Shown: positions 43,285 to 53,850 of the stretch, piece by piece
Layout of the letters: every line of letters starts with the position of its first letter
How positions within the stretch are numbered: the first letter of the stretch is position 1
Assembly (NCBI GenBank): GCA_028699175.1
Contig: JAQVVC010000001.1
Location: 1-53,850 of the forward strand
DNA length: 53,850 nt
From: Bacilli bacterium
GTDB lineage: Bacteria; Bacillota_I; Bacilli_A; RF39; UBA660
Direction of reading: 5' to 3'
Made by a program: the position numbers and the translations under genes
Notes under the pieces: model-generated
What the model was told of the DNA's origin: nothing
Database searches by the model: none
The model's input: the letters and a program-made list of their open reading frames with translations, nothing else

Positions 43285-43521
43285 ATGAAGGACGAAGTTT
43301 TTGATAAAGTAGAAAATAAAACGCATGTTGATAAAGCGACGATATTAGAGTTAGCTAAACAAGTTAATGATAATGGCTTAAAAGATGAAAAGACTTTAAA
43401 ATCAGTAATAAGTAAATTATCAGTAATAACAGGTAAAAATGTATCAAAAGAAATGGAAGAAAAAATTATAAAAACCATTTTAGAAGACAAAGTACCTAAA
43501 GATGTCGAAAAAATGTTTTAA
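43285..43521 (+). CDS. spoVIF: stage VI sporulation protein F (SpoVIF/YjcC family)
   Basis: KDEKTLKSVISKLSVITGKNVSKEMEEKIIKTI parallels my recollection of B. subtilis SpoVIF (KDENTVRSVINRVAQMANRRVPKELEDKIVESI). Start is ATG 43285 or TTG 43273. Confidence 0.65.
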   Translation: MKDEVFDKVENKTHVDKATILELAKQVNDNGLKDEKTLKSVISKLSVITGKNVSKEMEEKIIKTILEDKVPKDVEKMF

Positions 43522-43557
43522 AAATATTATAACTTTAGTTTTATAATATTTTTTTAT
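43521..43557 (+). terminator. A/T-only hairpin terminator after spoVIF
   Basis: Perfect 12-bp stem aaaatattataa / ttataatatttt with an 8-nt loop and T-run. Confidence 0.4.
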
Positions 43558-43585
43558 TCATAGAATTTATAAATAAACATAAGTT
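43558..43585 (+). promoter_or_regulatory. candidate sigma-E type promoter for spoIVA
   Basis: TCATAGA (43558-64), 13-nt spacer, CATAAGTT (43578-85), compared with the remembered consensus kmATATT / CATACAnT. spoIVA is sigma-E dependent in B. subtilis. Confidence 0.3.
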
Positions 43586-43607
43586 TTAAATGAAAGGGAA
43601 GAAGAAA

Positions 43608-43985
43608 ATGGAAAAGAAAGAGATTATTAGTAGCATCTCTGCATGGGGACAAGGAGAAATATATTTAGGAGTAGTAGGAGCTGTTCGTACTGGTAAATCG
43701 ACATTTATAAAAAAAGTAATCGAAAATTTAATAATTCCTAATATTAAAGATGAAGATGATAAAAAAAGATGTTTAGATGAAACTCCACAAAGTGCTCCTG
43801 GTAAAACCATTATGACTACTGAACCTAAATTTGTACCCTCTACTGGTGCTATGATAACAATTGATGAATTTACAACTAATATTAAATTAATTGATTGTGT
43901 TGGTTATATAATAAAATCAAGTAATGGTTATGAAGACGATTTAGGAAATCCTAGGCTTGTTAAAACTCCTTGGGGTGTTATATAA
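43608..43985 (+). pseudogene. spoIVA: 5' fragment of spoIVA (first ~122 codons), interrupted
   Basis: MEKKEIISSISAWGQGEIYLGVVGAVRTGKSTFIKK...TPQSAPGKTIMTTEPKFVP...LIDCVGY...GYEDDLGNPRLVKTPW tracks the B. subtilis SpoIVA N-terminus (492 aa) up to TPW (TGG 43971-73). It then reads GVI-stop into unrelated DNA. Confidence 0.85.
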
Positions 43986-44090
43986 AAATGGATACCCCTT
44001 AAATAACAGCACAAACCCTTATAATATAAGGCATAATGATATATTTTCTTACTAAGCTTTGCATTTAAATTATTAAGAAAAGGAGAAATT

Positions 44091-45065
44091 ATGTTGAAAA
44101 CAGAAAATTATTATGAAAAGTCCTTTACTGATTTAGCAAAGTTATATTATGATAAATTTCAAATTCCATTTCCTATTTCATTATTAAAAGCAGTTGAAAA
44201 TAAAGAAATAAAAACTAAAATAATAAATTGCTTAATTTCTGGTGAATTATATAATTATTATGATGATAGAAAATTCCGTATAAATAAAATAAATAATAAA
44301 ATTGATTATGTTGAATTGATAAATTTAATAAAACAAAGCATGGATGAAATAGGATATGATTATCAAAAAATGATTAATGATATTAATTCTGTAGTTAATC
44401 TTAGACTTAATGGAAAAACATTTTCTTTTGAAGAACATTTAGAGGCACTAGTACTTGCTCAATTGAGCAATCATCGATGGGGCGATGAAACAATAATTAG
44501 AAACAGAGAAAATTTAAGATATATTTTTAAATTTTACAATAGAGAATATTTAAAAAAAATCGATCCCGAAGTTTTAACTAAAGAAGTAATAAATATAAAT
44601 TGTGGTAATGCTTCAATATATAGACAAATGAAAGCATTAAGTTATAATATAACAATACTAGAAAAAATTGAAAAAGATTATGAACACTTAGATTGTTTTG
44701 TTGCATCAGCTGAACCGAATACAATAGCCAATATATTGTATGATGGTAAATATAAACTAAATCAAGTAGGAAAAGCTTTTGCATTAGATTATTTAAAAAA
44801 AGTTGGAATAAACACTTGTAAATCGGATTCACAAATAACTAGATTATTTGGTTCTAATAGATTATCTTTAGTCAATAATCATATAGCTACAGCTTTAGAA
44901 ACTATGTCAATAATAAAAAAAATAACAAACGATCCATTAATTTCTGAAATAGAAGTTAATTCTTTGTTGTGGCAATTTTGTTTGCCAAGAGGTGCAAATA
45001 TATGTACTAAAAATCCAAATTGTTATTTATGTAAATTAAATCATTTGTGTAATTATAACAATTAG
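44091..45065 (+). CDS. HhH-GPD / endonuclease III-like superfamily protein
   Basis: HhH-like LNQVGKAFALDYLKKVG followed by KSDSQITRLFG. C-terminal Fe-S-type Cys cluster CTKNPNCYLCKLNHLC (C-x5-C-x2-C-x5-C, against x6 in EndoIII). Confidence 0.5.
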   Translation: MLKTENYYEKSFTDLAKLYYDKFQIPFPISLLKAVENKEIKTKIINCLISGELYNYYDDRKFRINKINNKIDYVELINLIKQSMDEIGYDYQKMINDINSVVNLRLNGKTFSFEEHLEALVLAQLSNHRWGDETIIRNRENLRYIFKFYNREYLKKIDPEVLTKEVININCGNASIYRQMKALSYNITILEKIEKDYEHLDCFVASAEPNTIANILYDGKYKLNQVGKAFALDYLKKVGINTCKSDSQITRLFGSNRLSLVNNHIATALETMSIIKKITNDPLISEIEVNSLLWQFCLPRGANICTKNPNCYLCKLNHLCNYNN

Positions 45066-45143
45066 TAATATCGTATTTTTATATAACTTGCAGAAAAGAT
45101 ATAAAAGTATTATAATAAATCTATAAAATGAAAGGGAAATTTA

Positions 45144-45707
45144 ATGAAAAATAAAGAAACTGTTATTAATTTCAATGAAATTAAATTTGAAACAGAGAGA
45201 TTAATTATTAGAAGAATTAAAAAAGAAGATTGGCAAGACTATAATGAAATTATGGGAAACGAATTAACTATGAATTTTTTAGGACGTGCTAATACTTTAG
45301 AAGAAGTTAAAGGTTATGTGGAAAATCAAAGTAATCAAGATTATAATAACTTAAGTGGAAATTATGCTATCGTTTTAAAAGAAGAAAACAAAGTAATAGG
45401 TCAATTTGGATTAGAAATTAATACTAAACATTCAAAAGCTTCGATTAGTTATCTATTTAATAGTAAGTACTGGAATAAAGGGTATGCAATAGAGTGTGCT
45501 AAATTTATGGTGGATTATGCTTTTAATGAAATTAATTTAAATAGAATAGAAGCAGATTGTGTAAAAGAAAATGAAGCATCCTTAAAAATATTTAAGAAAT
45601 TAAATATGAATTTTGAGGGGGAATTTAAAGAATCTCGTTATAATAAAAGACTAAACAAATTTTTTGATGTAGTATATTATGCGATATTAAGAAGCGACTA
45701 TAAATGA
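45144..45707 (+). CDS. GNAT family N-acetyltransferase (RimJ/RimL-like)
   Basis: ETERLIIRRIKKEDWQDY..., YWNKGYAIE and NRIEADCVKENEASLKIFKKLNM. Confidence 0.8.
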   Translation: MKNKETVINFNEIKFETERLIIRRIKKEDWQDYNEIMGNELTMNFLGRANTLEEVKGYVENQSNQDYNNLSGNYAIVLKEENKVIGQFGLEINTKHSKASISYLFNSKYWNKGYAIECAKFMVDYAFNEINLNRIEADCVKENEASLKIFKKLNMNFEGEFKESRYNKRLNKFFDVVYYAILRSDYK

Positions 45708-45778
45708 ACTTAATAATGTATTTTATTATACTAATAAATTAGAATTAAAAGCAAAATTAGAGTAACTTTTTCAAAATA

Positions 45779-45817
45779 ATTACAAACTGTATAAAGAGTT
45801 GTGATTACAAACTGTAT
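45779..45817 (+). repeat. tandem direct repeat attacaaactgtataaagagt; the second copy is split by the IS
   Basis: Copy 1 is at 45779-45799. Copy 2 starts at 45804-45817 (attacaaactgtat) and resumes after the IS at 47402-47408 (aaagagt). Confidence 0.7.
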
Positions 45818-47393
45818 GTTAGTGTAAAGAGTTTTTGGGATTTTTAGAAGGATTCATTAAAAATATAATTGTATTTTAAAATTAATAACGAAAGTTGTTA
45901 ATTTTTTAGTATTTATAAGATAAAGCAATTGTTGGTAACTTTGGAAGTTTTGGTTTAGTATCTTTATGATACATATCAAAGATACTATAATTAATATTTT
46001 CTAAATCAATAATAATTTGTTCTTTATTATTGTGGTTGTTTAAATATAATTTTTTTAAATTGTAATTATTTTTATATAACATACGATGTTCCATTAGTTT
46101 GTCTATCATTTTTAAAGAATAAGCTTTAGGCCTTGAAGTAAATAGATCAGCTATATTATGCGAAATATTAGATTCCATACAACATCTTAAGTTATTGTTA
46201 TAAGAATTAAGAATGTATTGCCAATTATTAAGAATATATGTTTCCTTTTCCAAGATGGTTTTTTGTCGATGAGGATAACTTATTATTAAATTAGTGCACA
46301 GTTCTTTAAAAGTTTGTTTATCATCATTTAAAATATAGGTAGTAGCGTTATATTCTAAAAGTTCATTTTGACATATGTGATGCAGTGCCTGTTTGAAATG
46401 GAATTTATCAAGTCCAAAAATAACATTGGTATTAGTGGTAAATTTAAAATAATTTTTAATATTTTTAATCCATCCAGCACCATCACCCATATAATATATA
46501 TTTTTAATTTTATCTGTATTATATACTTTGTATATGTAATCTAGAACATTATCAACAATAGAACCACTATAGTTAGAAAATATCATTTTATTAATTAGTT
46601 TAATTCGATTACCATCATTGTTGATTTTATCGAAAACTACAATTGACTTTATAATTGCATCTTTCTTATTATTGCGTTGGGTATGAATAAATTTTTCATC
46701 AGCCATGATGTAGATACTATCTACATCATTAATCGGTTCACATTTAGGAATTGGCATAACGCTTTTTAGAATGATATTACGTACTATTTGCCTAGATAAT
46801 AAACAATCCTTTGATAAGTTTATTCTATTACCAATCATTTCAGAAATAAGACTACCGGTCTTTTGAAATGAATATTTAGTAGAATAATCAATCACCAATG
46901 CTTTAATGTAAGGATCAAAATAATCGTACTTATTAAGACCTAGAAACCAATCTAAATAACAAAATGAGCCTTTATTATGCTTGTCTGAATAGAATGTTCT
47001 TTTAAATGTTATTTCTCCAAAGATGGTCATAAGTGATCTTGTATGATGGGCTTTAATATGATACTTTCTTTTCCTGTCATAAGAGTTTCGATATCCTCTG
47101 TCTATGGCTTCAAATATAGTTATTAAGCTTTCTTTAGCAATTTTACATAAAGACTTGTCCAGTGATGAAAGAAGATTAATATAATTGAATACAGTGGGAT
47201 TGCTATCTATTTTATTCAATTCTTGTTCAAGGTTATTAGAAAAGTTTGAAATAATCATATTTTTTAATACATTTATATAATTGTTTGGTATAATATTCAT
47301 ATGGAAGACCTCCTAAAATATTGTTTTACAATTATATTTTAACATGAAGGTCTTCCTTTTGTATGTGTAATCCCAAAACTATTTTACACAATC
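45818..47393 (-). mobile_element. 1576-bp insertion sequence with imperfect terminal inverted repeats and 8-bp target-site duplication
   Basis: Left end GTTAGTGTAAAGAGTTTTTGGGATT. The reverse complement of the right end is GATTGTGTAAAATAGTTTTGGGATT. AACTGTAT is duplicated at 45810-45817 and 47394-47401. Confidence 0.85.
45906..47300 (-). CDS. IS transposase (possibly ISLre2/UPF0236-like)
   Basis: 464-aa single ORF filling the IS, with SD GGAGG upstream on the minus strand. The family guess rests on size and Firmicute context only. Confidence 0.7.
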   Translation of the reverse strand: MNIIPNNYINVLKNMIISNFSNNLEQELNKIDSNPTVFNYINLLSSLDKSLCKIAKESLITIFEAIDRGYRNSYDRKRKYHIKAHHTRSLMTIFGEITFKRTFYSDKHNKGSFCYLDWFLGLNKYDYFDPYIKALVIDYSTKYSFQKTGSLISEMIGNRINLSKDCLLSRQIVRNIILKSVMPIPKCEPINDVDSIYIMADEKFIHTQRNNKKDAIIKSIVVFDKINNDGNRIKLINKMIFSNYSGSIVDNVLDYIYKVYNTDKIKNIYYMGDGAGWIKNIKNYFKFTTNTNVIFGLDKFHFKQALHHICQNELLEYNATTYILNDDKQTFKELCTNLIISYPHRQKTILEKETYILNNWQYILNSYNNNLRCCMESNISHNIADLFTSRPKAYSLKMIDKLMEHRMLYKNNYNLKKLYLNNHNNKEQIIIDLENINYSIFDMYHKDTKPKLPKLPTIALSYKY

Positions 47394-47409
47394 AACTGTA
47401 TAAAGAGTA

Positions 47410-47438
47410 TTGACAAATATCCAAAAAACAGTTATCAT
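47410..47438 (+). promoter_or_regulatory. sigma-A type promoter of the peptide-modification cluster
   Basis: TTGACA (47410-15), 17-nt spacer, TATCAT (47433-38). Lies 9 bp from the IS target duplication. Confidence 0.6.
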
Positions 47439-47446
47439 ATCACTAA

Positions 47447-47521
47447 ATTTGGGAGTTGTCCCCAAATCTAATGATACAACAAGAAGTTATTGGGGATTCT
47501 AATTTTAGAATCTCCTTTTTT
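47447..47521 (+). promoter_or_regulatory. leader with three mutually exclusive hairpins ending in an intrinsic terminator (attenuator candidate)
   Basis: tttggg (47448-53) / cccaaa (47461-66). ccccaa (47460-65) / ttgggg (47490-95). Terminator ggggattcta (47492-501) / tagaatctcc (47506-15) plus T-run. Confidence 0.5.
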
Positions 47522-47568
47522 AAAAAAAAGATAAAATATATAAGTTTATAAATTTATAGGGGGAATTT

Positions 47569-49569
47569 ATGGAACAAGAAAAAATTACAGTAGTAATACC
47601 AATGTATAATAGTAAAGATTATATAGAACGTTGTTTAAACTCGATTTGTAATCAAACTTATAAAAATTTAGAAATAATAGTTATTGATGACGGAAGCCAA
47701 GATAAAAGTAAAAGTATAGTAGAGGAATTTCAGCAAAAAGATTCTAGAATAAAATATTTTTATCAAGAAAATCAAGGACCTGGTGTAGCGAGAAATGTCG
47801 GAATAGAAAAAGGAACTGGAAAATATATTTCGTTTATTGATAGTGATGATGAAATAAGAGAAAACTTTTTTGAAATTTTATCTAACACAATACAAGAAAA
47901 TGATAGTTTTGCATTAACTGGTGGATATATGATTTTTCCTGATGGTACATTTCAAAAATCATTTTTAACAAATGAAACTGAAACAAGAAATTTTAAAGTA
48001 CCTATATCTTGTAATAAACTATTTAATTTTGAATTAATAAGAGAAAAAAATTTAAGATTTAAAAGTTTATATTATGCTGAAGACATAGACTTCTGGGGCA
48101 GACTTTTAATGATAAATGATAAGTTTTCTATAGCAAATGATTATTTATATTTGTGTTATTTTAGAGAAGATTCTTTAACAAGAAGTTATACCGAAAAAGA
48201 TACTATTTATCAAATTTTTCAAGTTATTTCAAATATAGAAGATAGTGCAAAAATAAACAATAAGTATGAAAGTTTAAAAGAAAACTTTGAATTCTTGAAT
48301 ATAAAAGAAGTTTTAATTAGAGCAATGAAACAAATTAGTCAGCTTTCAGATTTTGGAGAATATGATGTTATTAAAATGTTATCATATGTCGAAGATAAAT
48401 ATCCTAATTGGTATTACAATAAATACATAAAATTATCATTTGATAAATACAGAAAAAAGAGACTAGAGCTATTGTTTAAAAAAGACTATAAGGGGATAAT
48501 CAATTATCTTCGCCAAATGAATTCAGGTCATGTAATAAAAACAGATGAAGAAATGCTTGCAGAAAACATAGTAGATCATTCTATTTCAGTTGAAAAAGAT
48601 CAAATAATTCAAATAAGATATAAAAGCACAGAATGTAATCCTTTAGTAGTCCAATTAATCAGAGAAATACAAAATCGAGGAGCGGTAGCTATTCCCAGAT
48701 TACAAGATTTAGACTTAGAAAGAGTCGCAAGGGAAACCTATGATAGTGCAGCTATGCAACAGTTAGCTGAAATAATTACCAAAGAAGCAGATTTTTATAG
48801 TTCATATATATCTATAGGTTATAGTGAAAATGATTATGATTTTTCAAGAAATAATGAAAATCCTGCTTTTAGATTGTTGATTAGTTATTTAACTGAATAT
48901 AACAAAATTGTAAGAAGCAAAAAAAGTGTTAGTGTATTTTATCCGTCTCCATTAGATGCACATAAAGCAAAAATGACTACCGAAGATTATAAAAAATATG
49001 CATTTTCGATTATGAATTATGATTATAAAAGTTTAAAAGTAAAGATGGAGCATTTAAAAGAAATGATGGATAAAACATCTCAAGTAGCAATAATAGGTAA
49101 AGATACAGACTTAACTTTTTCAAAAAAAGATATTCCATCTATTATTTTATCTGGAGAAGTAAATATCCCCGATGGAGAAGTTTATACATCTCCTATAAAA
49201 GATAGTGTAAATGGAACTATAAGGTTTAATGTTGCTACTAAATATATGGGCAATATATTTGAAAGTATATTATTAGAATTTAAAAATGGGAAAGTCGTAG
49301 ATTTTGATTGTAGTGACCCTAATGAATTAAGAAATATATTGGATATAGATAAAGGAAGTAGATTTATAGGTGAGTTTGCATTAGGAGTCCATCCACTTAT
49401 ATTATATCCAATAATTAATACATTGCATGATGAAAAAATTTATGGAAGTTTTCATTTAGCATTAGGTCAAGCATATAGAAATGCTTATAATGGAAATGAC
49501 TCAAATGTGCATTGGGATTTAATAAATATTCAAAGAGATGATTTTGATACAGGCAAAATTTTTCTTTGA
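47569..49569 (+). CDS. fusion protein: family-2 glycosyltransferase (N-terminal) plus M29 (AmpS/PepS-type) aminopeptidase (C-terminal); the 3' tail is frameshifted
   Basis: GT2: ITVVIPMYNSKDYIERCLNSICNQTYKNLEIIVIDDGSQD and IDSDDE. M29: NIPDGEVYTSP, GEFALG, HLALG and NVHWDL. The conserved tail FFDDILIRENGEFV... continues in another frame at 49562-49666. Confidence 0.75.
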   Translation: MEQEKITVVIPMYNSKDYIERCLNSICNQTYKNLEIIVIDDGSQDKSKSIVEEFQQKDSRIKYFYQENQGPGVARNVGIEKGTGKYISFIDSDDEIRENFFEILSNTIQENDSFALTGGYMIFPDGTFQKSFLTNETETRNFKVPISCNKLFNFELIREKNLRFKSLYYAEDIDFWGRLLMINDKFSIANDYLYLCYFREDSLTRSYTEKDTIYQIFQVISNIEDSAKINNKYESLKENFEFLNIKEVLIRAMKQISQLSDFGEYDVIKMLSYVEDKYPNWYYNKYIKLSFDKYRKKRLELLFKKDYKGIINYLRQMNSGHVIKTDEEMLAENIVDHSISVEKDQIIQIRYKSTECNPLVVQLIREIQNRGAVAIPRLQDLDLERVARETYDSAAMQQLAEIITKEADFYSSYISIGYSENDYDFSRNNENPAFRLLISYLTEYNKIVRSKKSVSVFYPSPLDAHKAKMTTEDYKKYAFSIMNYDYKSLKVKMEHLKEMMDKTSQVAIIGKDTDLTFSKKDIPSIILSGEVNIPDGEVYTSPIKDSVNGTIRFNVATKYMGNIFESILLEFKNGKVVDFDCSDPNELRNILDIDKGSRFIGEFALGVHPLILYPIINTLHDEKIYGSFHLALGQAYRNAYNGNDSNVHWDLINIQRDDFDTGKIFL

Positions 49570-49667
49570 TGATATTTTAATTCGAGAAAACGGAGAATTT
49601 GTTCCTGATAATTTAAAAACTCTAAATGATGAACGAGCAAGAATATTAACAAAAAGGAGAAGATAGT

Positions 49668-50774
49668 ATGGAAAGAGTGCCGTCACTAATTGTTTTAAAT
49701 CTCACATCTGACTGCAATTTAAGATGTAAATATTGTTACGCTTCGGCTGGGACATTTAAAGAATATATGACATCTGAATGTGCGATAGAAATAATAAGAC
49801 AAGTAGCAAAATACAACAATACAATTGAATTGTTATTTCATGGAGGAGAACCGTTATTGGTCTTTGATGTAATCAAAGAGGTCATAGATTATTGTAAAAA
49901 CAATCTGAAAAGTAAAGAAATAAGATATTATATACAGACTAATGGAGTGTTATTAACTGCAGAAAAAGCCAAGTATTTGATAGATGAAAACGTAGAAATC
50001 TGTTTGAGTATTGATGGACATACTGAAACAAGTAATCAATGCAGAATTTATCCTGCTGGGCAATCAAGTTTAAAAATGTTGAAAAATCGAATTGATTTAT
50101 TAAAAAGTATGAATTATAATACAACTGTTTTAGCAGTATTAAATAAGAAAAATAAGAACGAAATAGAAGATTTTATAGATTTTTTAATAAATAATAAAAT
50201 ATTTAATTTTTCTTTAAATTATTTTATAAAAGGAGGAAGAGGGAATGAAAACAGTGATCTCGCTTTAAGCCCTGTAGAGTTATATGAAGTAACAAAGAAT
50301 GTAATATCAAAGATTTTGAGCTATCACGAAAAAAACATAAAAGTAGTTGAAAGAAATATTTCTCATCTTTTAAGGAACATATTTACAGAAAAAAAAGGCT
50401 ATATGTGTATGAATAGCCCGTGTGGTGCTGGGAACCATTTATTAGGATATACACCAAATGGTGATATATATCCCTGCGATGATTTAAGTTCTGTTGAGCA
50501 ATTTAAAATAGGTAATATTTTTGATGGAGATATTAAAGATATATTAAAAGATAACGATGTAATTAATTTTTTTAATTATTGTTCTTATGAAAATATTCCT
50601 AAATGTTGTGATTGTAAAATTAAAAATAAATGTGGTGCTGGATGTGCTTCGAGAAAATTTTATGAAAATGGGACAATCTATGAAGTGGATCCAATTTGTG
50701 AATTTTATAAATTAATAGTACCATATATTGAAAATTTAATGATCGAAAACCCATCAATAAAGGAATTAGTATAA
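49668..50774 (+). CDS. radical SAM enzyme with SPASM domain (peptide maturase 1)
   Basis: CNLRCKYCYA (CxxxCxxC), FHGGEPLL, and auxiliary-cluster cysteines YMCMNSPCGAG, YPCD and CCDCKIKNKCGAGCASR. Confidence 0.85.
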   Translation: MERVPSLIVLNLTSDCNLRCKYCYASAGTFKEYMTSECAIEIIRQVAKYNNTIELLFHGGEPLLVFDVIKEVIDYCKNNLKSKEIRYYIQTNGVLLTAEKAKYLIDENVEICLSIDGHTETSNQCRIYPAGQSSLKMLKNRIDLLKSMNYNTTVLAVLNKKNKNEIEDFIDFLINNKIFNFSLNYFIKGGRGNENSDLALSPVELYEVTKNVISKILSYHEKNIKVVERNISHLLRNIFTEKKGYMCMNSPCGAGNHLLGYTPNGDIYPCDDLSSVEQFKIGNIFDGDIKDILKDNDVINFFNYCSYENIPKCCDCKIKNKCGAGCASRKFYENGTIYEVDPICEFYKLIVPYIENLMIENPSIKELV

Positions 50775-50775
50775 A

Positions 50776-51462
50776 ATGAAAACTACAGTAATTAGAAGAA
50801 TAATGAAAAATCAAACTAACATAATTAACAACTTGTTAAAAAACAACAACAAAATAATTTTTATAAAATCTATACCTCAAACAGGAAAATCAACAATATT
50901 AAAAAAATTATTTGATATGAATCATGAAGAGATAAAATTATTTATAACTGGATGTGATCCTAAAAACATGTCTTTAATTAATGATGAAATATTAGCAGAA
51001 ATTGAAAGTTGTCTAATCAAAAATAAAGAAAAAAATATTACGATTTATTTTGATGAATATTATAATGATGAAATATTATATTATTTGCAAACTAATAAAC
51101 ACAAAAATATAAAGGTATTTATAACTACAAACAAAATAATAAAAAAAATGAATTTTAATTATGGAATAATAGATATATATAAAGATATTTTTAACGAAAT
51201 AGATAAATATATGCTTGAAGAATATAATATTAATATTGAGGACAAATTATCAAAAAGAAAAATATCGGTAACTGAATTGATTAAAATAGCAGGTTGGCTT
51301 GATAAAAACGCTAATTTAAATTACAATATTAATGAAATTTTAAATATATTGAAAGATGAATTAGATGAATTAGAAAAAGCTAGATTTTTACCAACAACAA
51401 CAGCAATATTATGTATACATAAATATTTTAGAACTTTTAAAACGTTTGATTTTGAAGATTAG
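50776..51462 (+). CDS. small P-loop-like protein of unknown function
   Basis: Deviant Walker A SIPQTGKSTILKKL and Walker B-like ITIYFDEYY. Abuts the upstream stop. Confidence 0.5.
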   Translation: MKTTVIRRIMKNQTNIINNLLKNNNKIIFIKSIPQTGKSTILKKLFDMNHEEIKLFITGCDPKNMSLINDEILAEIESCLIKNKEKNITIYFDEYYNDEILYYLQTNKHKNIKVFITTNKIIKKMNFNYGIIDIYKDIFNEIDKYMLEEYNINIEDKLSKRKISVTELIKIAGWLDKNANLNYNINEILNILKDELDELEKARFLPTTTAILCIHKYFRTFKTFDFED

Positions 51463-51477
51463 TAAGGAGATTTTATT

Positions 51478-52785
51478 ATGGATTTATCACTTATAGTAGA
51501 AAAAGGAATAGACATTTTGATTAATAAAAACACAGGGAAATGGATAGCTATAAAAAATAATGAAGAACAAGATTTAAAAATTATAAAAAAAATCAGCCGA
51601 GAATTATTAATAGATAAATTCGGGAACAAATTTGGTACATATTTATGGAGCAAAAGAATTGAAATGTCAGAAAAAATTGAAGACAAGTTTTGTCATCAAA
51701 TGAATTGCTTAGTTATAAATGTTACTGATAGCTGTAATTTAAAATGCCAATATTGTTATGCTAACAATGAAAATAAAATTAAAATGATTGATTCTGAAAC
51801 CATAATTAAAGCCGTAGAAAAATTTTCTGAAAGAATATATCCAAATAATTTAACTGTTATTTTTCATGGTGGAGAGCCTTTGCTTGCTTTTGAAAAAATT
51901 AAAGAAGCAGTAGAGAATCTTAAACATATTAAAAATGTCGTTTACTCTTTACAAACGAACGGAACTTTACTAACTCAGGAAAAATTAATTTTTTTCAAAA
52001 AAAATAAATTTTTAATAGGGTTAAGTATAGATGGAATCAGTGATGAAAACAATTCACTAAGAAATATAGACGGAAAGATAAAAGATTATACAAATAAAAA
52101 TTTGGAAATTCTAAAAAATAATAAATCATTTGTAAAGCCTCTTATTGTAGTACATAAAAAAAATATTAACAATATAAAAGAAATAGTAAACTTTTTTAAA
52201 AATAATGATTTCGATGGACTCGTATGTAACTTATTGTTTGAACCAGAAAATTTTGACAATTGTGTTTTAGATGATTCATTATTTGATAACATGAGATATA
52301 TTCTTGATTTAATGATGGAAAATTATGATGGAGAAAATTTTGCGTTTTCTGAACGAGACATCAGATTGTTATTTAGAAAAGTAATATATGGATTTATAGA
52401 TGAATATATGTGTATGAATAGTCCATGTGGTGCAGGAAAAGAAACAGTTGCAGTAGACTACAAAGGGGATGTATGGGCTTGCAATGTTTTGATTTCAAAA
52501 ACAGAAAAGGATAACTACATGGGCAATATATTTGAAAATTCAATTAATGAAATTTTAAGTAAAGAAGTAAAAATTTCCAAAAGAAATATTGATTCAATTC
52601 CTATATGTAATGAGTGTCCATATAAAAAATTATGTGGTGGTGGTGGATGTTGTGGTTTTGTTACTAATCAAAGAAATAATTTGAAAGATAAAAGTATATA
52701 TTGTGACTACCATTTTAAGCTTATAACATATATGATAGATAGTGTTATGAGATATTACGAAAGTGATATTATAACAAATTTTTAA
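51478..52785 (+). CDS. radical SAM enzyme with SPASM domain and ~75-aa N-terminal extension (peptide maturase 2, possible RRE)
   Basis: CNLKCQYCYA, FHGGEPLL, YMCMNSPCGAG, WACN and CNECPYKKLCGGGGCCGF. A paralogue of the enzyme at 49668-50774. Confidence 0.85.
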   Translation: MDLSLIVEKGIDILINKNTGKWIAIKNNEEQDLKIIKKISRELLIDKFGNKFGTYLWSKRIEMSEKIEDKFCHQMNCLVINVTDSCNLKCQYCYANNENKIKMIDSETIIKAVEKFSERIYPNNLTVIFHGGEPLLAFEKIKEAVENLKHIKNVVYSLQTNGTLLTQEKLIFFKKNKFLIGLSIDGISDENNSLRNIDGKIKDYTNKNLEILKNNKSFVKPLIVVHKKNINNIKEIVNFFKNNDFDGLVCNLLFEPENFDNCVLDDSLFDNMRYILDLMMENYDGENFAFSERDIRLLFRKVIYGFIDEYMCMNSPCGAGKETVAVDYKGDVWACNVLISKTEKDNYMGNIFENSINEILSKEVKISKRNIDSIPICNECPYKKLCGGGGCCGFVTNQRNNLKDKSIYCDYHFKLITYMIDSVMRYYESDIITNF

Positions 52786-52800
52786 AGGAGGTGAAAAATA

Positions 52801-52923
52801 ATGACTAAGGACAAAAAATATGATGCAATCATGAAGAAATTAGCTACAAAAAGAGCAAAAGTAAATGTACCTACTTATGACAGTAAGGTAATGATGGCTC
52901 ATTGGAGCAATGGTTACAATTAA
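52801..52923 (+). CDS. 40-aa candidate RiPP precursor peptide (not in the ORF track)
   Basis: ATG 52801 lies about 9 nt after AAAGGAGGTG. MTKDKKYDAIMKKLATKRAKVNVPTYDSKVMMAHWSNGYN, TAA at 52921-23, with a terminator immediately after. No Cys; Lys-rich N-terminal half and aromatic C-terminus. Confidence 0.65.
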   Translation: MTKDKKYDAIMKKLATKRAKVNVPTYDSKVMMAHWSNGYN

Positions 52924-52924
52924 G

Positions 52925-52952
52925 AAAAAAGCTACTAATTGTAGCTTTTTTT
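52925..52952 (+). terminator. intrinsic terminator after the precursor gene
   Basis: aaaaaagctac-taatt-gtagctttttt. Confidence 0.75.
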
Positions 52953-52976
52953 GTATATTGTTTGTGGTTAATATGT

Positions 52977-53402
52977 TTATAAATCACAAATTTTTTCAAT
53001 TGAGATATTAAATTTTTTAGCAATTAAGAGTATATATTTTGTTAGAATTAGTACCTTACCATTTAGAAAAGCAGAAATTGTTGATTGTGTTGTATTCAAT
53101 TGCTTAGCTAATTTAATTTGTGTTAAATTATTATCATTGCATATTTTTTTTATGTTTTTACCTATTATAATTTTATCAAGTTCTTTAATTTGATTTTTAT
53201 TTTGAATAGGAGATAAGCCAGCTAAATAATCCATTGAGATATTATAAAACTTTGCTAATAAAAGTAATTTCTTTAGTGGTATTGTTTCTAGTCCGTTTTC
53301 CCATTTACTATAATTCGCTTGTTGAGTATTTATAATATTAGCAATATATTCTTGTGTATAATTATTTTTAATCCTTATCGCTTTTAATCTTTTAAAGTTC
53401 AT
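52977..53402 (-). CDS. XRE-family regulator with two tandem HTH domains
   Basis: Two Cro/C1-type units: LKAIRIKNNYTQEYIANIINTQQANYSKWENG and NIKKICNDNNLTQIKLAKQLNTTQSTISAFLNG. Confidence 0.8.
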   Translation of the reverse strand: MNFKRLKAIRIKNNYTQEYIANIINTQQANYSKWENGLETIPLKKLLLLAKFYNISMDYLAGLSPIQNKNQIKELDKIIIGKNIKKICNDNNLTQIKLAKQLNTTQSTISAFLNGKVLILTKYILLIAKKFNISIEKICDL

Positions 53403-53416
53403 ATAATTATACCTCT

Positions 53417-53850
53417 TTACTTATTATAAGTGTAATCAAATTTTCCTAATACTCCATCAATAGAAAAATTATATTTTACTGCTAATATATACAATTTATC
53501 TAATTTTATTTGAGTTTTCCCATTTTCATAGGCAGCATAGGATGACTGTTTAATCTTTAAATCTTCTGCTAAATTTTCTTGTGATAATCTATTATATCTT
53601 CTTATCTTTCTAATTTGTTTGCCTAAATCATCAAAATTAGCTGATAGAGGATTGATCATATATCTTTTATTATTAGTGATTCCAGTTAAATAATCTATAC
53701 TTAAATTATAATAGTCTGATAATTTTTCGATAATTGGAAGTGGAAAAGATACTATACCATTTTCCATAGCAGTATATATTCCTCTTTTTATTCCCAAAAT
53801 TTCAGATATTTCTTTTTGTGTTAAATCCAAGTCTTCTCTTGTAAATTTTA
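53417..53850 (-). CDS. second XRE-family regulator with two HTH domains (5' end probably outside the window)
   Basis: LTQKEISEILGIKRGIYTAMENG and IRKIRRYNRLSQENLAEDLKIKQSSYAAYENG. The frame stays open to the window edge (KFTREDLDLTQ...), so the track's TTG start is doubtful. Confidence 0.7.
   Translation of the reverse strand, partial: KFTREDLDLTQKEISEILGIKRGIYTAMENGIVSFPLPIIEKLSDYYNLSIDYLTGITNNKRYMINPLSANFDDLGKQIRKIRRYNRLSQENLAEDLKIKQSSYAAYENGKTQIKLDKLYILAVKYNFSIDGVLGKFDYTYNK

What the first reader, a model, noticed from the sequence alone, without database searches (positions are those of the whole stretch)
43558..53850. spoIVA is split after codon 122 by at least 9.9 kb of foreign DNA: candidate sporulation-gene intervening element
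From ATG 43608 the product tracks the SpoIVA N-terminus (Walker A GAVRTGKSTFIKK, PQSAPGKTIMTTEPKFVP, LIDCVGY, GYEDD...PRLVKTPW). It breaks right after TGG 43971-73, where B. subtilis continues YEEPIPF, and reads GVI-stop. Everything downstream to the window end is accessory-type: an HhH-GPD protein, a GNAT, an IS, a peptide-modification cluster and two XRE regulators. SpoIVA is essential for coat and cortex assembly. The other sporulation genes in this window (spoIIGA, sigE, sigG, spoVIF, the coat protein, spoVD-type PBP) look intact, which argues against general decay of sporulation. The known precedent is mother-cell-specific excision of intervening elements (skin in sigK, and others in spoVFB, spoVR, gerE, spsM) by a recombinase encoded in the element. 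I do not recall spoIVA being a well-described target. Near the junction there is a GGGGT (43972-76) / ACCCC (43994-98) dyad and a CCTTATA-A-TATAAGG palindrome (44017-44031), either of which could be a recombinase or operator site.
Basis: partly seen in the sequence, partly recalled or inferred. Interest (0 to 1): 0.8.

Follow-up and report, generated by a model that had tools for sequence, protein, structure and literature searches.

The report
Mobile element splitting sporulation gene spoIVA
The spore-coat gene spoIVA of this uncultured gut/digester bacterium is cut in two by a mobile DNA element that a large serine recombinase inserts at one exact codon; this is a new target for the known class of elements that must be cut out again before a spore can form.

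Summary
spoIVA (ATG 43608) ends after Trp122 (TGG 43971-73), reads GVI-stop, and foreign DNA follows to the window end.

The join is real, not a misassembly:
- An independent contig matches 100% across it.
- A 99.8%-identical strain has an empty site, and its homology stops exactly at 43973.

- Two relatives carry, on single contigs, 5' spoIVA, a 6.7 or 12.7 kb element, a large serine recombinase (LSR), then 3' spoIVA.
- A contig from the same or a sister species ends the LSR gene with AGGTATCCATTT-N12-TGG and runs into codons 123-492. That arm is the inverted repeat of the window's AAATGGATACC (43986-96).
- Joining the two halves in silico gives a 492-aa SpoIVA.

The elements look conjugative or mobilizable (Mob_Pre, VirB4/T4CP) rather than phage-like. 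Their recombinase resembles TnpX/TndX, and they move between hosts: 99.4%-identical LSRs sit in hosts whose SpoIVA is 56% identical. Six of 55 related species representatives are split at this codon, and three more at codon ~403.

Excision in the mother cell is inferred, not shown. I found no report of spoIVA as a target. This is a new member of a known kind.

The parts
43558..43585 (+). Sigma-E-type promoter-like sequence of spoIVA (TCATAGA-N13-CATAAGTT)
   Evidence: Found by eye in an alignment of spoIVA upstream regions from 35 loci of the clade. They share kCATAww-N13-CATAnnnT about 25-30 nt before the ATG. This is an inference, not a test.
43608..43973 (+). spoIVA 5' segment, codons 1-122 (Walker A through ...LVKTPW)
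   Evidence: Pfam SpoIVA_ATPase positions 1-122 of 237, E 3e-48. It is 98% identical to P0001, which continues uninterrupted.
43971..43973 (+). Recombination core: TGG (Trp122), shared by attL, attR and attB; the crossover is probably at TG 43971-72
   Evidence: Homology with the empty site L011 ends here. Every attL and attR examined shares TGG. TG lies at the symmetry centre of the reconstructed attP of L007. Some alleles end in ...TPC, as expected if the third base comes from the element.
43974..43998 (+). Element-side half-site of attL (P' arm), with the distal motif TGGATACC at 43989-43996
   Evidence: Nine distinct element left ends carry (A/T)GTGATACC or TGGATACC 14-15 nt after TGG. The reverse complement GGTATC(A/C)(C/A) lies 15 nt before TGG at all attR junctions.
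43974..43985 (+). Element-encoded tail GVI plus TAA stop that ends the truncated product
   Evidence: Equivalent tails (VMLNK, VLLNK, EV..KVIP and others) occur in at least 58 other allele clusters.
44017..44031 (.). Palindrome CCTTATA-A-TATAAGG just inside the left end
   Evidence: Sequence. Similar hairpins lie at the same relative position in L012, L046, L068 and L016. No terminator call was made for it, and its function is unknown.
43974..53850 (+). Left 9.9 kb of the intervening element; it runs off the window
   Evidence: It continues in L002 for about 5 kb more: XRE152, an AMP-binding protein, a HisKA/response-regulator hybrid and a 245-aa ORF.
44091..45065 (+). Conserved left-end ORF (324 aa) of this element family, function unknown
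   Evidence: It is 48-51% identical to the first ORF of the elements in L012, L046 and L068. It has no family or PDB match and a low-confidence model.
45144..45707 (+). GNAT acetyltransferase (cargo)
   Evidence: Pfam Acetyltransf_3, E 7e-28. A GNAT is also present in the L012 element.
45906..47300 (-). UPF0236 / ISLre2-like transposase gene (an IS inside the element)
   Evidence: Pfam UPF0236, E 7e-37. NCBIfam ISLre2 family, E 1e-48, below the curated cut-off.
47569..52923 (+). Cargo cluster: GT2-M29 fusion protein, radical-SAM/SPASM, 228-aa P-loop-like protein, radical-SAM/SPASM, 40-aa ORF (possible precursor peptide)
   Evidence: Pfam. NCBIfam peptide-maturase families, all below their cut-offs.
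52977..53850 (-). Two double-HTH XRE regulators; the second is cut by the window end. Likely element repressors
   Evidence: Pfam HTH_3 twice in each. Homologous XRE genes occur in the L012, L046 and L068 elements.

Best explanation
**What it is.** The window holds the left junction (attL) and the first 9.9 kb of a mobile element. The element belongs to a family of integrative conjugative/mobilizable elements that a TnpX/TndX-like large serine recombinase (LSR) inserts into a coding-constrained site of about 45 bp inside spoIVA. Strand exchange occurs at the TG of the Trp122 codon.

**Effect of insertion.**
- It separates codons 1-122, which keep their sigma-E-type promoter, from codons 123-492.
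- The LSR gene sits at the far end of the element, next to the 3' fragment, and is preceded by a conserved 37-64 aa ORF. That ORF is a candidate recombination directionality factor.

**How the gene is restored.** Precise LSR-mediated excision rejoins the halves into a 492-aa SpoIVA. I think the most likely setting is the mother cell during sporulation, as for skin, gin and SPbeta. The forespore chromosome would then keep the element. The same excision would also produce the circle needed for horizontal transfer.

**What is shown.** The exact junction, the att-site architecture, the LSR, complete elements in relatives, the empty site in a 99.8%-identical strain, horizontal spread between hosts, and in-silico restoration of the ORF.

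**What is inferred.** That this copy still has its LSR end in the same genome, that it excises, and that excision is timed to sporulation.
For: **Junction and empty site**
- The truncation is at codon 122.
- The empty-site strain L011 is 99.79% identical and diverges exactly at 43973.
- L181 (100% identical) and L180 reproduce the junction.

**Complete elements on single contigs**
- L007: 5' fragment, 6.7 kb element, 522-aa LSR (Resolvase+Recombinase+Zn_ribbon), then a 375-aa 3' fragment.
- L012+L182: 12.7 kb with Mob_Pre, XRE, GNAT, a 60-aa ORF and a 528-aa LSR.

**Right end of the window type**
- L186 reads ...AGGTATCCATTTAAGAGTACACCG-TGG|TATGATGAAGAAATACCG.... The P arm is the inverted repeat of window 43986-96. 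By my count the first ~80 bases after TGG differ from the empty site L011 at 3 positions; blastn gives 95% over a 127-nt stretch that spans the junction.
- It comes from sample ERZ27250894, which also holds the window's cargo at 99.95% identity (L003).
- L177 supplies the full 530-aa LSR plus T4CP and VirB4 genes.

**Restoration and mobility**
- Window 5' + L186 3' translates to 492 aa; rejoined L007 also gives 492 aa.
- All left ends share GTGATACC/TGGATACC at +14/15, and all right ends share GGTATCAC/GGTATCCA at -15.
- LSRs of L182 and L111 are 99.4% identical while their host SpoIVA C-terminal parts are 55.7% identical.

**Prevalence**
- 6 of 55 species representatives are split at this site.
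- At least 58 of the 120 listed allele clusters are truncated right after W122.

**Host and precedent**
- The other sporulation genes in the window are intact.
- The LSR is related to TnpX, SprA and TndX.
- A conserved small ORF precedes every LSR. This parallels GirX, CD1234 and Skr (PMC5595907, PMC5025042, PMC6957869).
Against: - The window does not contain the right end. The link between this copy and an LSR/attR rests on a separate metagenome contig whose host DNA is about 94-96% identical to close relatives of the window's strain.
- This copy carries an IS and lacks a relaxase in its first 9.9 kb, so it could be decayed.
- TnpX and TndX are, from my own knowledge, able to excise without a directionality factor and are not known to be sporulation-controlled.
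- No convincing conserved sigma-E or sigma-K promoter was found upstream of the small ORF and LSR (by eye only).
- The empty site in a 99.8%-identical strain, together with frequent horizontal transfer, shows that insertions are recent. Intact gene halves therefore do not prove continued selection.
- No attP or circular form was found.
Confidence: 0.6

Rival explanations
1. A dead-end or merely tolerated insertion. An ICE/IME uses the conserved spoIVA site as a landing pad. Carriers cannot sporulate, or sporulate only after rare, unregulated excision. There is no developmental control.
For: - Insertions are recent and spread horizontally.
- The LSR clade (TnpX/TndX) belongs to transposon-like elements, not developmental switches.
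- No sporulation promoter was identified.
- This copy carries an IS.
- One 3' fragment (L146) has an apparent frameshift, and one LSR (L183) is split into two ORFs.
Against: - The state is common: about 11% of species representatives at this site, about 16% with site 2, and dozens of allele clusters. That is hard to reconcile with loss of an essential transmission trait.
- All the other 5' and 3' fragments examined are intact ORFs.
- The neighbouring sporulation genes are intact.
- Every experimentally studied LSR element inside a mother-cell sporulation gene excises during sporulation (PMC4191935, PMC5595907, PMC5025042, PMC10747680).
- The L146 contig has only 1.2x coverage, so its frameshift may be a sequencing error.
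Confidence: 0.3
2. spoIVA pseudogene: the 3' two-thirds of the gene was deleted and unrelated DNA lies next to the stump.
For: No 3' fragment lies within the window or within the 5 kb added by L002.
Against: - The break is at the exact base used by a whole family of LSR elements, and it is followed by their conserved half-site.
- Same or sister-species contigs carry codons 122-492 or 123-492. One starts exactly at TGG (L176). One is preceded by an LSR gene and the matching arm (L186).
Confidence: 0.04
3. Assembly artefact: a chimeric join at about 43974.
For: Metagenome assemblies often break near this site. L041 ends at the TG of the Trp codon, L176 starts at TGG, and several contigs end 49-146 nt inside the element.
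Against: The same junction occurs in independent assemblies and samples (L181 at 100%, L180, L016). Equivalent junctions occur in many other species, including inside a 1.03-Mb contig (L007).
Confidence: 0.01

Closest known systems
gin element in gerE of Bacillus cereus ATCC 10987 (GirC LSR + 6.5-kDa GirX RDF; PMC5595907)
   Same: A non-phage element that interrupts a mother-cell sporulation gene. It has an LSR plus a very small accessory ORF, a short core inside inverted-repeat att arms, and a suspected link to conjugation.
   Different: - The target here is spoIVA, not gerE.
- The LSR lineage differs (RLSREDGDD motif, TnpX/TndX-like).
- The elements here carry relaxase or T4SS genes themselves.
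- Excision and RDF function are untested here.
skin elements in sigK (B. subtilis SpoIVCA/Skr; C. difficile CD1231/CD1234; PMC5025042, PMC6957869)
   Same: - The layout is 5' gene fragment, element, LSR at one end, 3' fragment.
- A small ORF lies just upstream of, or overlapping, the LSR start. In L007 a 42-aa ORF overlaps the LSR start, as skr overlaps spoIVCA.
- Independent elements hit different sites in the same gene: sigK there, codons 122 and ~403 of spoIVA here.
   Different: - skin is a degenerate prophage that is inherited vertically. The elements here are conjugative or mobilizable and move between distant hosts.
- The interrupted gene is a structural morphogenetic ATPase needed early, not a late sigma factor.
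SPbeta/spsM, vfbin/spoVFB, vrin/spoVR, yin/yabG, phi3T/kamA (PMC4191935, PMC10747680, PMC6957869)
   Same: Mobile elements that interrupt sporulation genes and are excised to reconstitute them. In the SPbeta (SprA/SprB) case an LSR and a directionality factor do this. SprA (PDB 9dxh) is a detectable homologue of the LSR here (E 2e-19).
   Different: - Those are prophage or prophage-like elements in cultured Bacillus and Clostridium.
- The hosts here are uncultured low-GC 'Bacilli' MAGs from gut and digester samples.
- spoIVA was not listed as a target in any paper I could search.
Tn4451/Tn4453 (TnpX + TnpZ Mob) and Tn5397 (TndX) of clostridia
   Same: The closest characterised recombinases: the TnpX catalytic domain (PDB 2mhc, E 7e-29) and TndX (~40% identity over 360 aa). 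The L012-type elements combine an LSR with a Mob_Pre relaxase. From my own knowledge, Tn4451 does the same.
   Different: From my own knowledge, those transposons use many GA-centred targets and are not tied to a sporulation gene. The elements here use one conserved site with a TG core.
fdxN element excision by XisF in Anabaena heterocysts
   Same: An LSR-mediated, developmentally programmed excision in a terminally differentiated cell that restores a gene. There is a weak NCBIfam match to recomb_XisF (E 4e-24, below the cut-off).
   Different: A different phylum, gene and regulators. This is an analogy of logic only.

Membership tests
Sporulation-gene intervening element (skin/gin/SPbeta type) | Interrupts the coding sequence of a mother-cell-expressed sporulation gene | tested here: met
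   SpoIVA_ATPase positions 1-122 of 237, then a stop. Mother-cell (sigma-E) expression of spoIVA is established for B. subtilis and C. difficile (PMC5025042). A sigma-E-like promoter here is seen by eye only.
Sporulation-gene intervening element (skin/gin/SPbeta type) | 5' and 3' gene fragments lie in the same orientation, and precise joining restores the full ORF | tested here: met
   Met on single contigs in relatives (L007; L012+L182). For the window it is met only by combining it with the separate contig L186, which gives 492 aa. Physical linkage for this copy is not shown.
Sporulation-gene intervening element (skin/gin/SPbeta type) | A site-specific recombinase is encoded at one end of the element | tested here: inconclusive
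   Present in L007, L029, L111, L168, L177 and L182, and as the C-terminal 102 codons in L186. It is not inside the window, whose element runs off the end.
Sporulation-gene intervening element (skin/gin/SPbeta type) | A short identical core at attL and attR, flanked by imperfect inverted repeats | tested here: met
   The core is TGG. The arms are GGTATC(A/C)(C/A)-N15-TGG-N14/15-(G/T)(T/G)GATACC.
Sporulation-gene intervening element (skin/gin/SPbeta type) | Excision occurs during sporulation in the mother cell, driven by sporulation-controlled recombinase or RDF expression | not testable with these tools
   No expression or time-course data exist for these uncultured organisms. Promoter inspection was inconclusive, and no attP form was found.
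Sporulation-gene intervening element (skin/gin/SPbeta type) | A cognate recombination directionality factor | tested here: inconclusive
   A conserved 37-64 aa ORF (MYET.EFxD..G.D.KEVLKSCIxxYY) lies immediately upstream of every LSR. It has no family match, and its function is untested.
Large serine recombinase (integrase) family | N-terminal resolvase catalytic domain, recombinase domain and zinc-ribbon domain in a protein of about 500 aa | tested here: met
   PF00239, PF07508 and PF13408 in the 530-aa L177 protein, with a weak DUF4368 match. PHROG integrase phrog_95, E 5e-96. PDB homologues are TnpX, SprA and the TP901-1 integrase.
Integrative conjugative / mobilizable element | Relaxase and/or type IV secretion and coupling-protein genes inside the element | tested here: inconclusive
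   Mob_Pre relaxase in L012, L046 and L068. T4CP, a VirB4-like gene and an M23 peptidase lie upstream of the LSR in L177. None lies in the window's 9.9 kb or in L002. The only link between the window's cargo and the L177 module is the 1.9-kb contig L006.
Prophage or prophage-like element | Phage structural, packaging or lysis genes | tested here: not met
   No such genes appear among the Pfam and PHROG results for the ORFs scanned, or among the precomputed Pfam calls for the relatives. No related attP was found in IMG/VR.

The most novel reading that the evidence does not exclude
These are conjugative elements that use endospore formation as a launch window. Excision in the doomed mother cell both repairs spoIVA, so the spore is completed and the integrated copy passes on in the forespore, and frees a transfer-competent circle. 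That circle can conjugate out of a cell that has no future. This would couple sporulation to horizontal transfer at no cost to the germ line. It would also make an early, structural sporulation gene subject to control by a mobile element, in a large and barely studied clade of reduced-genome gut 'Bacilli'.
Probability: 0.15. Interest if true: 0.85.

Novelty: new member of a known kind. Interest (0 to 1): 0.6.

Why it matters
**A new target for a known mechanism.** If excision is sporulation-coupled, spoIVA joins sigK, spsM, spoVFB, spoVR, gerE, yabG and kamA as a gene rebuilt by programmed DNA rearrangement. SpoIVA is the basement-layer morphogenetic ATPase, which from general knowledge acts soon after sigma-E activation. 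Excision would therefore have to be fast and efficient.

**The carriers differ from known cases.** They are conjugative or mobilizable elements that hop between hosts whose SpoIVA proteins are only 56% identical. They are not fossil prophages.

**The gene is hit repeatedly.** Two different recombinase lineages use two sites in spoIVA.

**It says something about the hosts.** These uncultured low-GC lineages, some binned as 'Tenericutes' or 'Mycoplasma sp. CAG:956', appear to keep a working sporulation programme.

**A practical by-product.** The data give a set of natural LSR orthologues with their attB, attL and attR sequences already defined.

Tried and rejected
1. **First homologue search.** All top hits were short, which at first suggested that the whole clade has a split gene. 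The tool returns hits of about the query's length. The genome scan showed most species are uninterrupted. The peak of 121-127 aa products with element-coded tails is still real.
2. **73-aa query for the 3' part.** It returned only short fragments and was of no use.
3. **Metagenome scan with the same query.** It gave no exact match for this species, but it did yield three further attR junctions.
4. **Walking beyond L002.** The middle of the element therefore remains unknown.
5. **attP pattern scans of IMG/VR.** Each gave one hit. Both are unrelated sequences: a repeat-bearing coding region in L184 and a 57.5% GC contig in L185.
6. **Function of the 324-aa left-end ORF and of the small ORF.** Pfam, NCBIfam, PHROGs and a PDB profile search gave nothing. 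The single-sequence AlphaFold model has pLDDT 44, so no fold search was run.
7. **Sigma-70 promoter and terminator scan around the junction.** Uninformative.
8. **Sigma-E/K motifs upstream of the LSR operons.** I found only partial matches by eye in AT-rich DNA and do not count them as evidence.
9. **GC content.** It does not distinguish the element from the host.
10. **IS copies as a cause of contig breaks.** The window's IS has no nucleotide match in any other locus I fetched.

Full report
**1. The observation**

From ATG 43608 (an alternative ATG lies at 43590), the + strand encodes 122 residues. They match Pfam SpoIVA_ATPase positions 1-122 of 237 (E 3e-48). The frame then reads GGT GTT ATA TAA.

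Everything downstream is accessory-type:
- a 324-aa ORF with no family match;
- a GNAT;
- a UPF0236/ISLre2-like transposase on the opposite strand;
- a GT2-M29 fusion protein;
- two radical-SAM/SPASM genes around a 228-aa P-loop-like protein, followed by a 40-aa ORF;
- two double-HTH XRE regulators, the second cut by the window end.

Other sporulation genes in the window are intact ORFs: spoIIGA, sigE, sigG, spoVD (above the NCBIfam cut-off) and spoVIF. GC content does not separate host from insert.

**2. The join is real and the break point is exact**

- An independent ENA contig (L181) is 100% identical across 43474-44151.
- An NCBI MAG contig (L180, GCA_041672345.1) is 99.8% identical and encodes the same 125-aa product.
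- A second NCBI MAG (L011, GCA_028704855.1) is 99.79% identical to the window over 10,366 nt. It diverges exactly after TGG 43973. There it continues in frame as ...VKTPW|YDEEIPFIEAAEIGTEKVIRDH, an empty site.

Occupied and empty sites therefore coexist within one species-level population.

**3. What the insert is: evidence from relatives**

*Complete examples on single contigs*

- L007, inside a 1.03-Mb contig, has this order: spoIVA codons 1-122, a 6.7-kb insert, a 522-aa protein with Resolvase + Recombinase + Zn_ribbon_recom domains, then spoIVA codons 123-492 on the same strand.
- Contig ERZ27229654:k119_192247 (L012+L182) holds a 12.7-kb element. Its first ORF is 51% identical to the window's 324-aa ORF. 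After that come RhuM, a Mob_Pre relaxase, XRE regulators, a GNAT and cargo genes, then a 60-aa ORF and a 528-aa LSR, and finally spoIVA 3'.

*Shared junction architecture*

- All interrupted copies break after CC(N)TGG.
- On the element side, (A/T)GTGATACC follows 14-15 nt after TGG; in the window and in L016 the motif is TGGATACC.
- All right junctions read GGTATCAC or GGTATCCA, then 15 nt, then TGG, then codon 123.
- The attP reconstructed for L007 is GGTATCACTT-N..-TGG-N..-AAGTGATACC, a perfect 10-nt inverted repeat whose symmetry centre falls on the TG of TGG.
- A few alleles end ...TPC instead of ...TPW. That is expected if exchange is after TG and the third base comes from the element.
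- In the empty site an ATACC (from the Glu-Ile-Pro codons) lies 5 bp nearer the core than in the element arm. This fits the attB/attP half-site offset described for LSRs. That comparison rests on my own knowledge and I did not test it.

**4. The right end of the window's own element type**

- L186 comes from sample ERZ27250894, which also holds 6.1 kb of the window's cargo at 99.95% identity (L003).
- It carries the last 102 codons of an LSR gene, then AGGTATCCATTTAAGAGTACACCG-TGG|TATGATGAAGAAATACCGTTTATTGAGGCAGCTGAAATTGG.
- The arm is the inverted repeat of window 43986-43996.
- By my count the first ~80 bases after TGG differ from the empty site L011 at 3 positions. blastn gives 95% over a 127-nt stretch that spans the junction, and 93.7% to L176 over 1.6 kb.
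- The window's 5' part joined to the L186 3' part translates to a 492-aa SpoIVA.
- L176 (GCA_028684255.1) is a contig that begins exactly at this TGG and carries codons 122-492.
- L177 is from a second species (83% identical SpoIVA C-terminal part). It shows the full module upstream of the same attR type: a VirB4-like gene, an M23 peptidase, a T4 coupling protein, a 37-aa ORF and a 530-aa LSR.
- A 1.9-kb contig (L006) joins the window's XRE region to the interior of that coupling-protein gene. It is either a deletion derivative or an assembly chimera.

If these pieces all belong to one element type, it is at least about 25 kb long. Its middle is unknown.

**5. Mobility and prevalence**

- The LSRs of L182 and L111 are 99.4% identical, while their hosts' SpoIVA C-terminal parts are 55.7% identical. 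Left-end ORFs are 80-87% identical where host N-terminal fragments are 61-79% identical. The elements therefore move between distant hosts and land on the same base.
- The target is strongly constrained by coding. The consensus of 95 distinct empty sites is CCtAGaaTgGTtAaaACaCCtTGG|TATgatGAagaaATaCCtTTTgTaGAaG.
- Among 55 GTDB species representatives of the clade, 6 are split at codon 122. These MAGs are labelled Bacilli, 'Tenericutes', Mycoplasma sp. CAG:956, Ca. Ventrenecus and Ca. Faecimonas. One more contig ends at the TG.
- Three further representatives are split at a second site after codon ~403. One of them (L065) is complete, with a 544-aa serine recombinase of a different lineage (YARVST motif) at its right end.
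- Of the 120 listed short homologue clusters, at least 58 stop within 12 residues of W122 with element-encoded tails.
- Among 80 metagenome loci found with a 3' query, 3 were of the attR type.

**6. Mechanism**

*Shown by comparison:* LSR-mediated, site-specific integration with a TG(G) core and inverted-repeat arms; the recombinase at the right end; a conserved small ORF directly upstream of every LSR (MYET.EFxD..G.D.KEVLKSCIxxYY, 37-64 aa), overlapping the LSR start in L007.

That is the position of GirX, CD1234 and Skr in known systems (PMC5595907, PMC5025042, PMC6957869). The ORF has no family match and its role is untested.

*Inferred:* excision restores spoIVA during sporulation. The arguments are:
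- the precedent of every studied element of this architecture;
- the frequency of the split state;
- intact gene halves and intact neighbouring sporulation genes;
- a retained sigma-E-type promoter upstream of the 5' part (by eye).

*Against:*
- The recombinase is closest to TnpX and TndX, enzymes of transposon-like elements that I recall excise without a directionality factor.
- Insertions are recent.
- I found no convincing sporulation promoter upstream of the LSR operons.
- This copy carries an IS.
- I found no attP form.

I put about 0.95 on 'LSR element integrated at Trp122', and about 0.6 on the full statement that includes sporulation-coupled reconstitution.

**7. Comparison with what is known**

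The architecture is that of skin, gin, SPbeta and related intervening elements. The closest in kind is gin, which is non-phage and has an LSR plus a tiny RDF.

The differences are:
- the target gene;
- the recombinase lineage;
- the conjugative or mobilizable nature and demonstrable inter-host spread;
- the uncultured host clade;
- the use of two sites in the same gene by two LSR lineages.

Full-text searches found no paper that describes spoIVA as interrupted by an element. The listed targets are sigK, spsM, spoVFB, spoVR, gerE, yabG, kamA and spoVK. The library omits most subscription-journal papers, so this is absence in what I could search, not proof.

**8. Verdict**

The finding is real, and its interpretation is supported in structure. 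The regulatory part remains a hypothesis. I classify it as a new member of a known kind, of moderate to high interest.

Noticed in passing
L052 10001-11287; L064; L065 9029-17628: There is a second insertion site in spoIVA, after codon ~403 (...KAVAPSIHI|). L065 is complete. It has a ~7-kb insert with a 544-aa serine recombinase of a different lineage (YARVSTDKYEQ motif) at its right end, abutting the 3' fragment MHMIRVDVNSTFEPIIG....
   Followed up: partly
window 47569-52923: The element carries a possible peptide-modification cluster: a GT2-M29 peptidase fusion protein, two radical-SAM/SPASM maturase-like genes (all NCBIfam hits below their cut-offs), a 228-aa P-loop-like protein, and a 40-aa ORF (52801-52923) that could be the precursor.
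   Followed up: partly
window 53417-53850; L006; L003; L002 5092-5550: Assemblies are unstable inside the XRE152 gene. The window ends there, and L003 ends 152 nt earlier. L006 switches at about window 53577 into the interior of the coupling-protein gene of L177 (99.8% identity). This is either a deletion variant of the element or an assembly chimera.
   Followed up: partly
L176 position 1; L041 end; L008-L010, L013-L015 ends: Several contigs start or stop at or very near the att core. L176 begins at the T of TGG, L041 ends at the TG of the Trp codon, and others end 49-146 nt inside the element. This is what mixed occupied and empty (or excised) populations would do to an assembly graph, but it is not proof.
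   Followed up: no
L002 1118-2297 vs L016 687-1869; window 45483-45716 vs L016 5585-5818: Two element genes have 78-90% nucleotide matches to chromosomal genes upstream of spoIVA in L016: the HisKA/response-regulator hybrid beyond the window end, and part of the GNAT. This suggests gene exchange between the element and host chromosomes.
   Followed up: no
P0090, P0105: Some truncated alleles have the tail FNM(C/R)LRYPFKK. It would encode GGTATCC at the usual distance from TGG, but in the opposite orientation to the window's TGGATACC. This may be a variant half-site or a different arrangement. I did not look at the DNA.
   Followed up: no
L183 502-2087; L146 956-2058: The LSR of L183 is split into 371-aa and 146-aa ORFs. 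The spoIVA 3' part of L146 has an apparent -1 frameshift, on a contig with 1.2x coverage. These could be decay or sequencing error.
   Followed up: no
L186 2127-3527 (-); window 45906-47300 (-): UPF0236 transposase genes lie both inside the element and just downstream of spoIVA-HU in L186. They share no nucleotide similarity, so they are different IS copies or families.
   Followed up: partly
tool behaviour: the search for homologous proteins returned hits of about the query's length: short queries gave only short proteins. Length distributions in its output therefore cannot be read as biology without a second check.
   Followed up: yes
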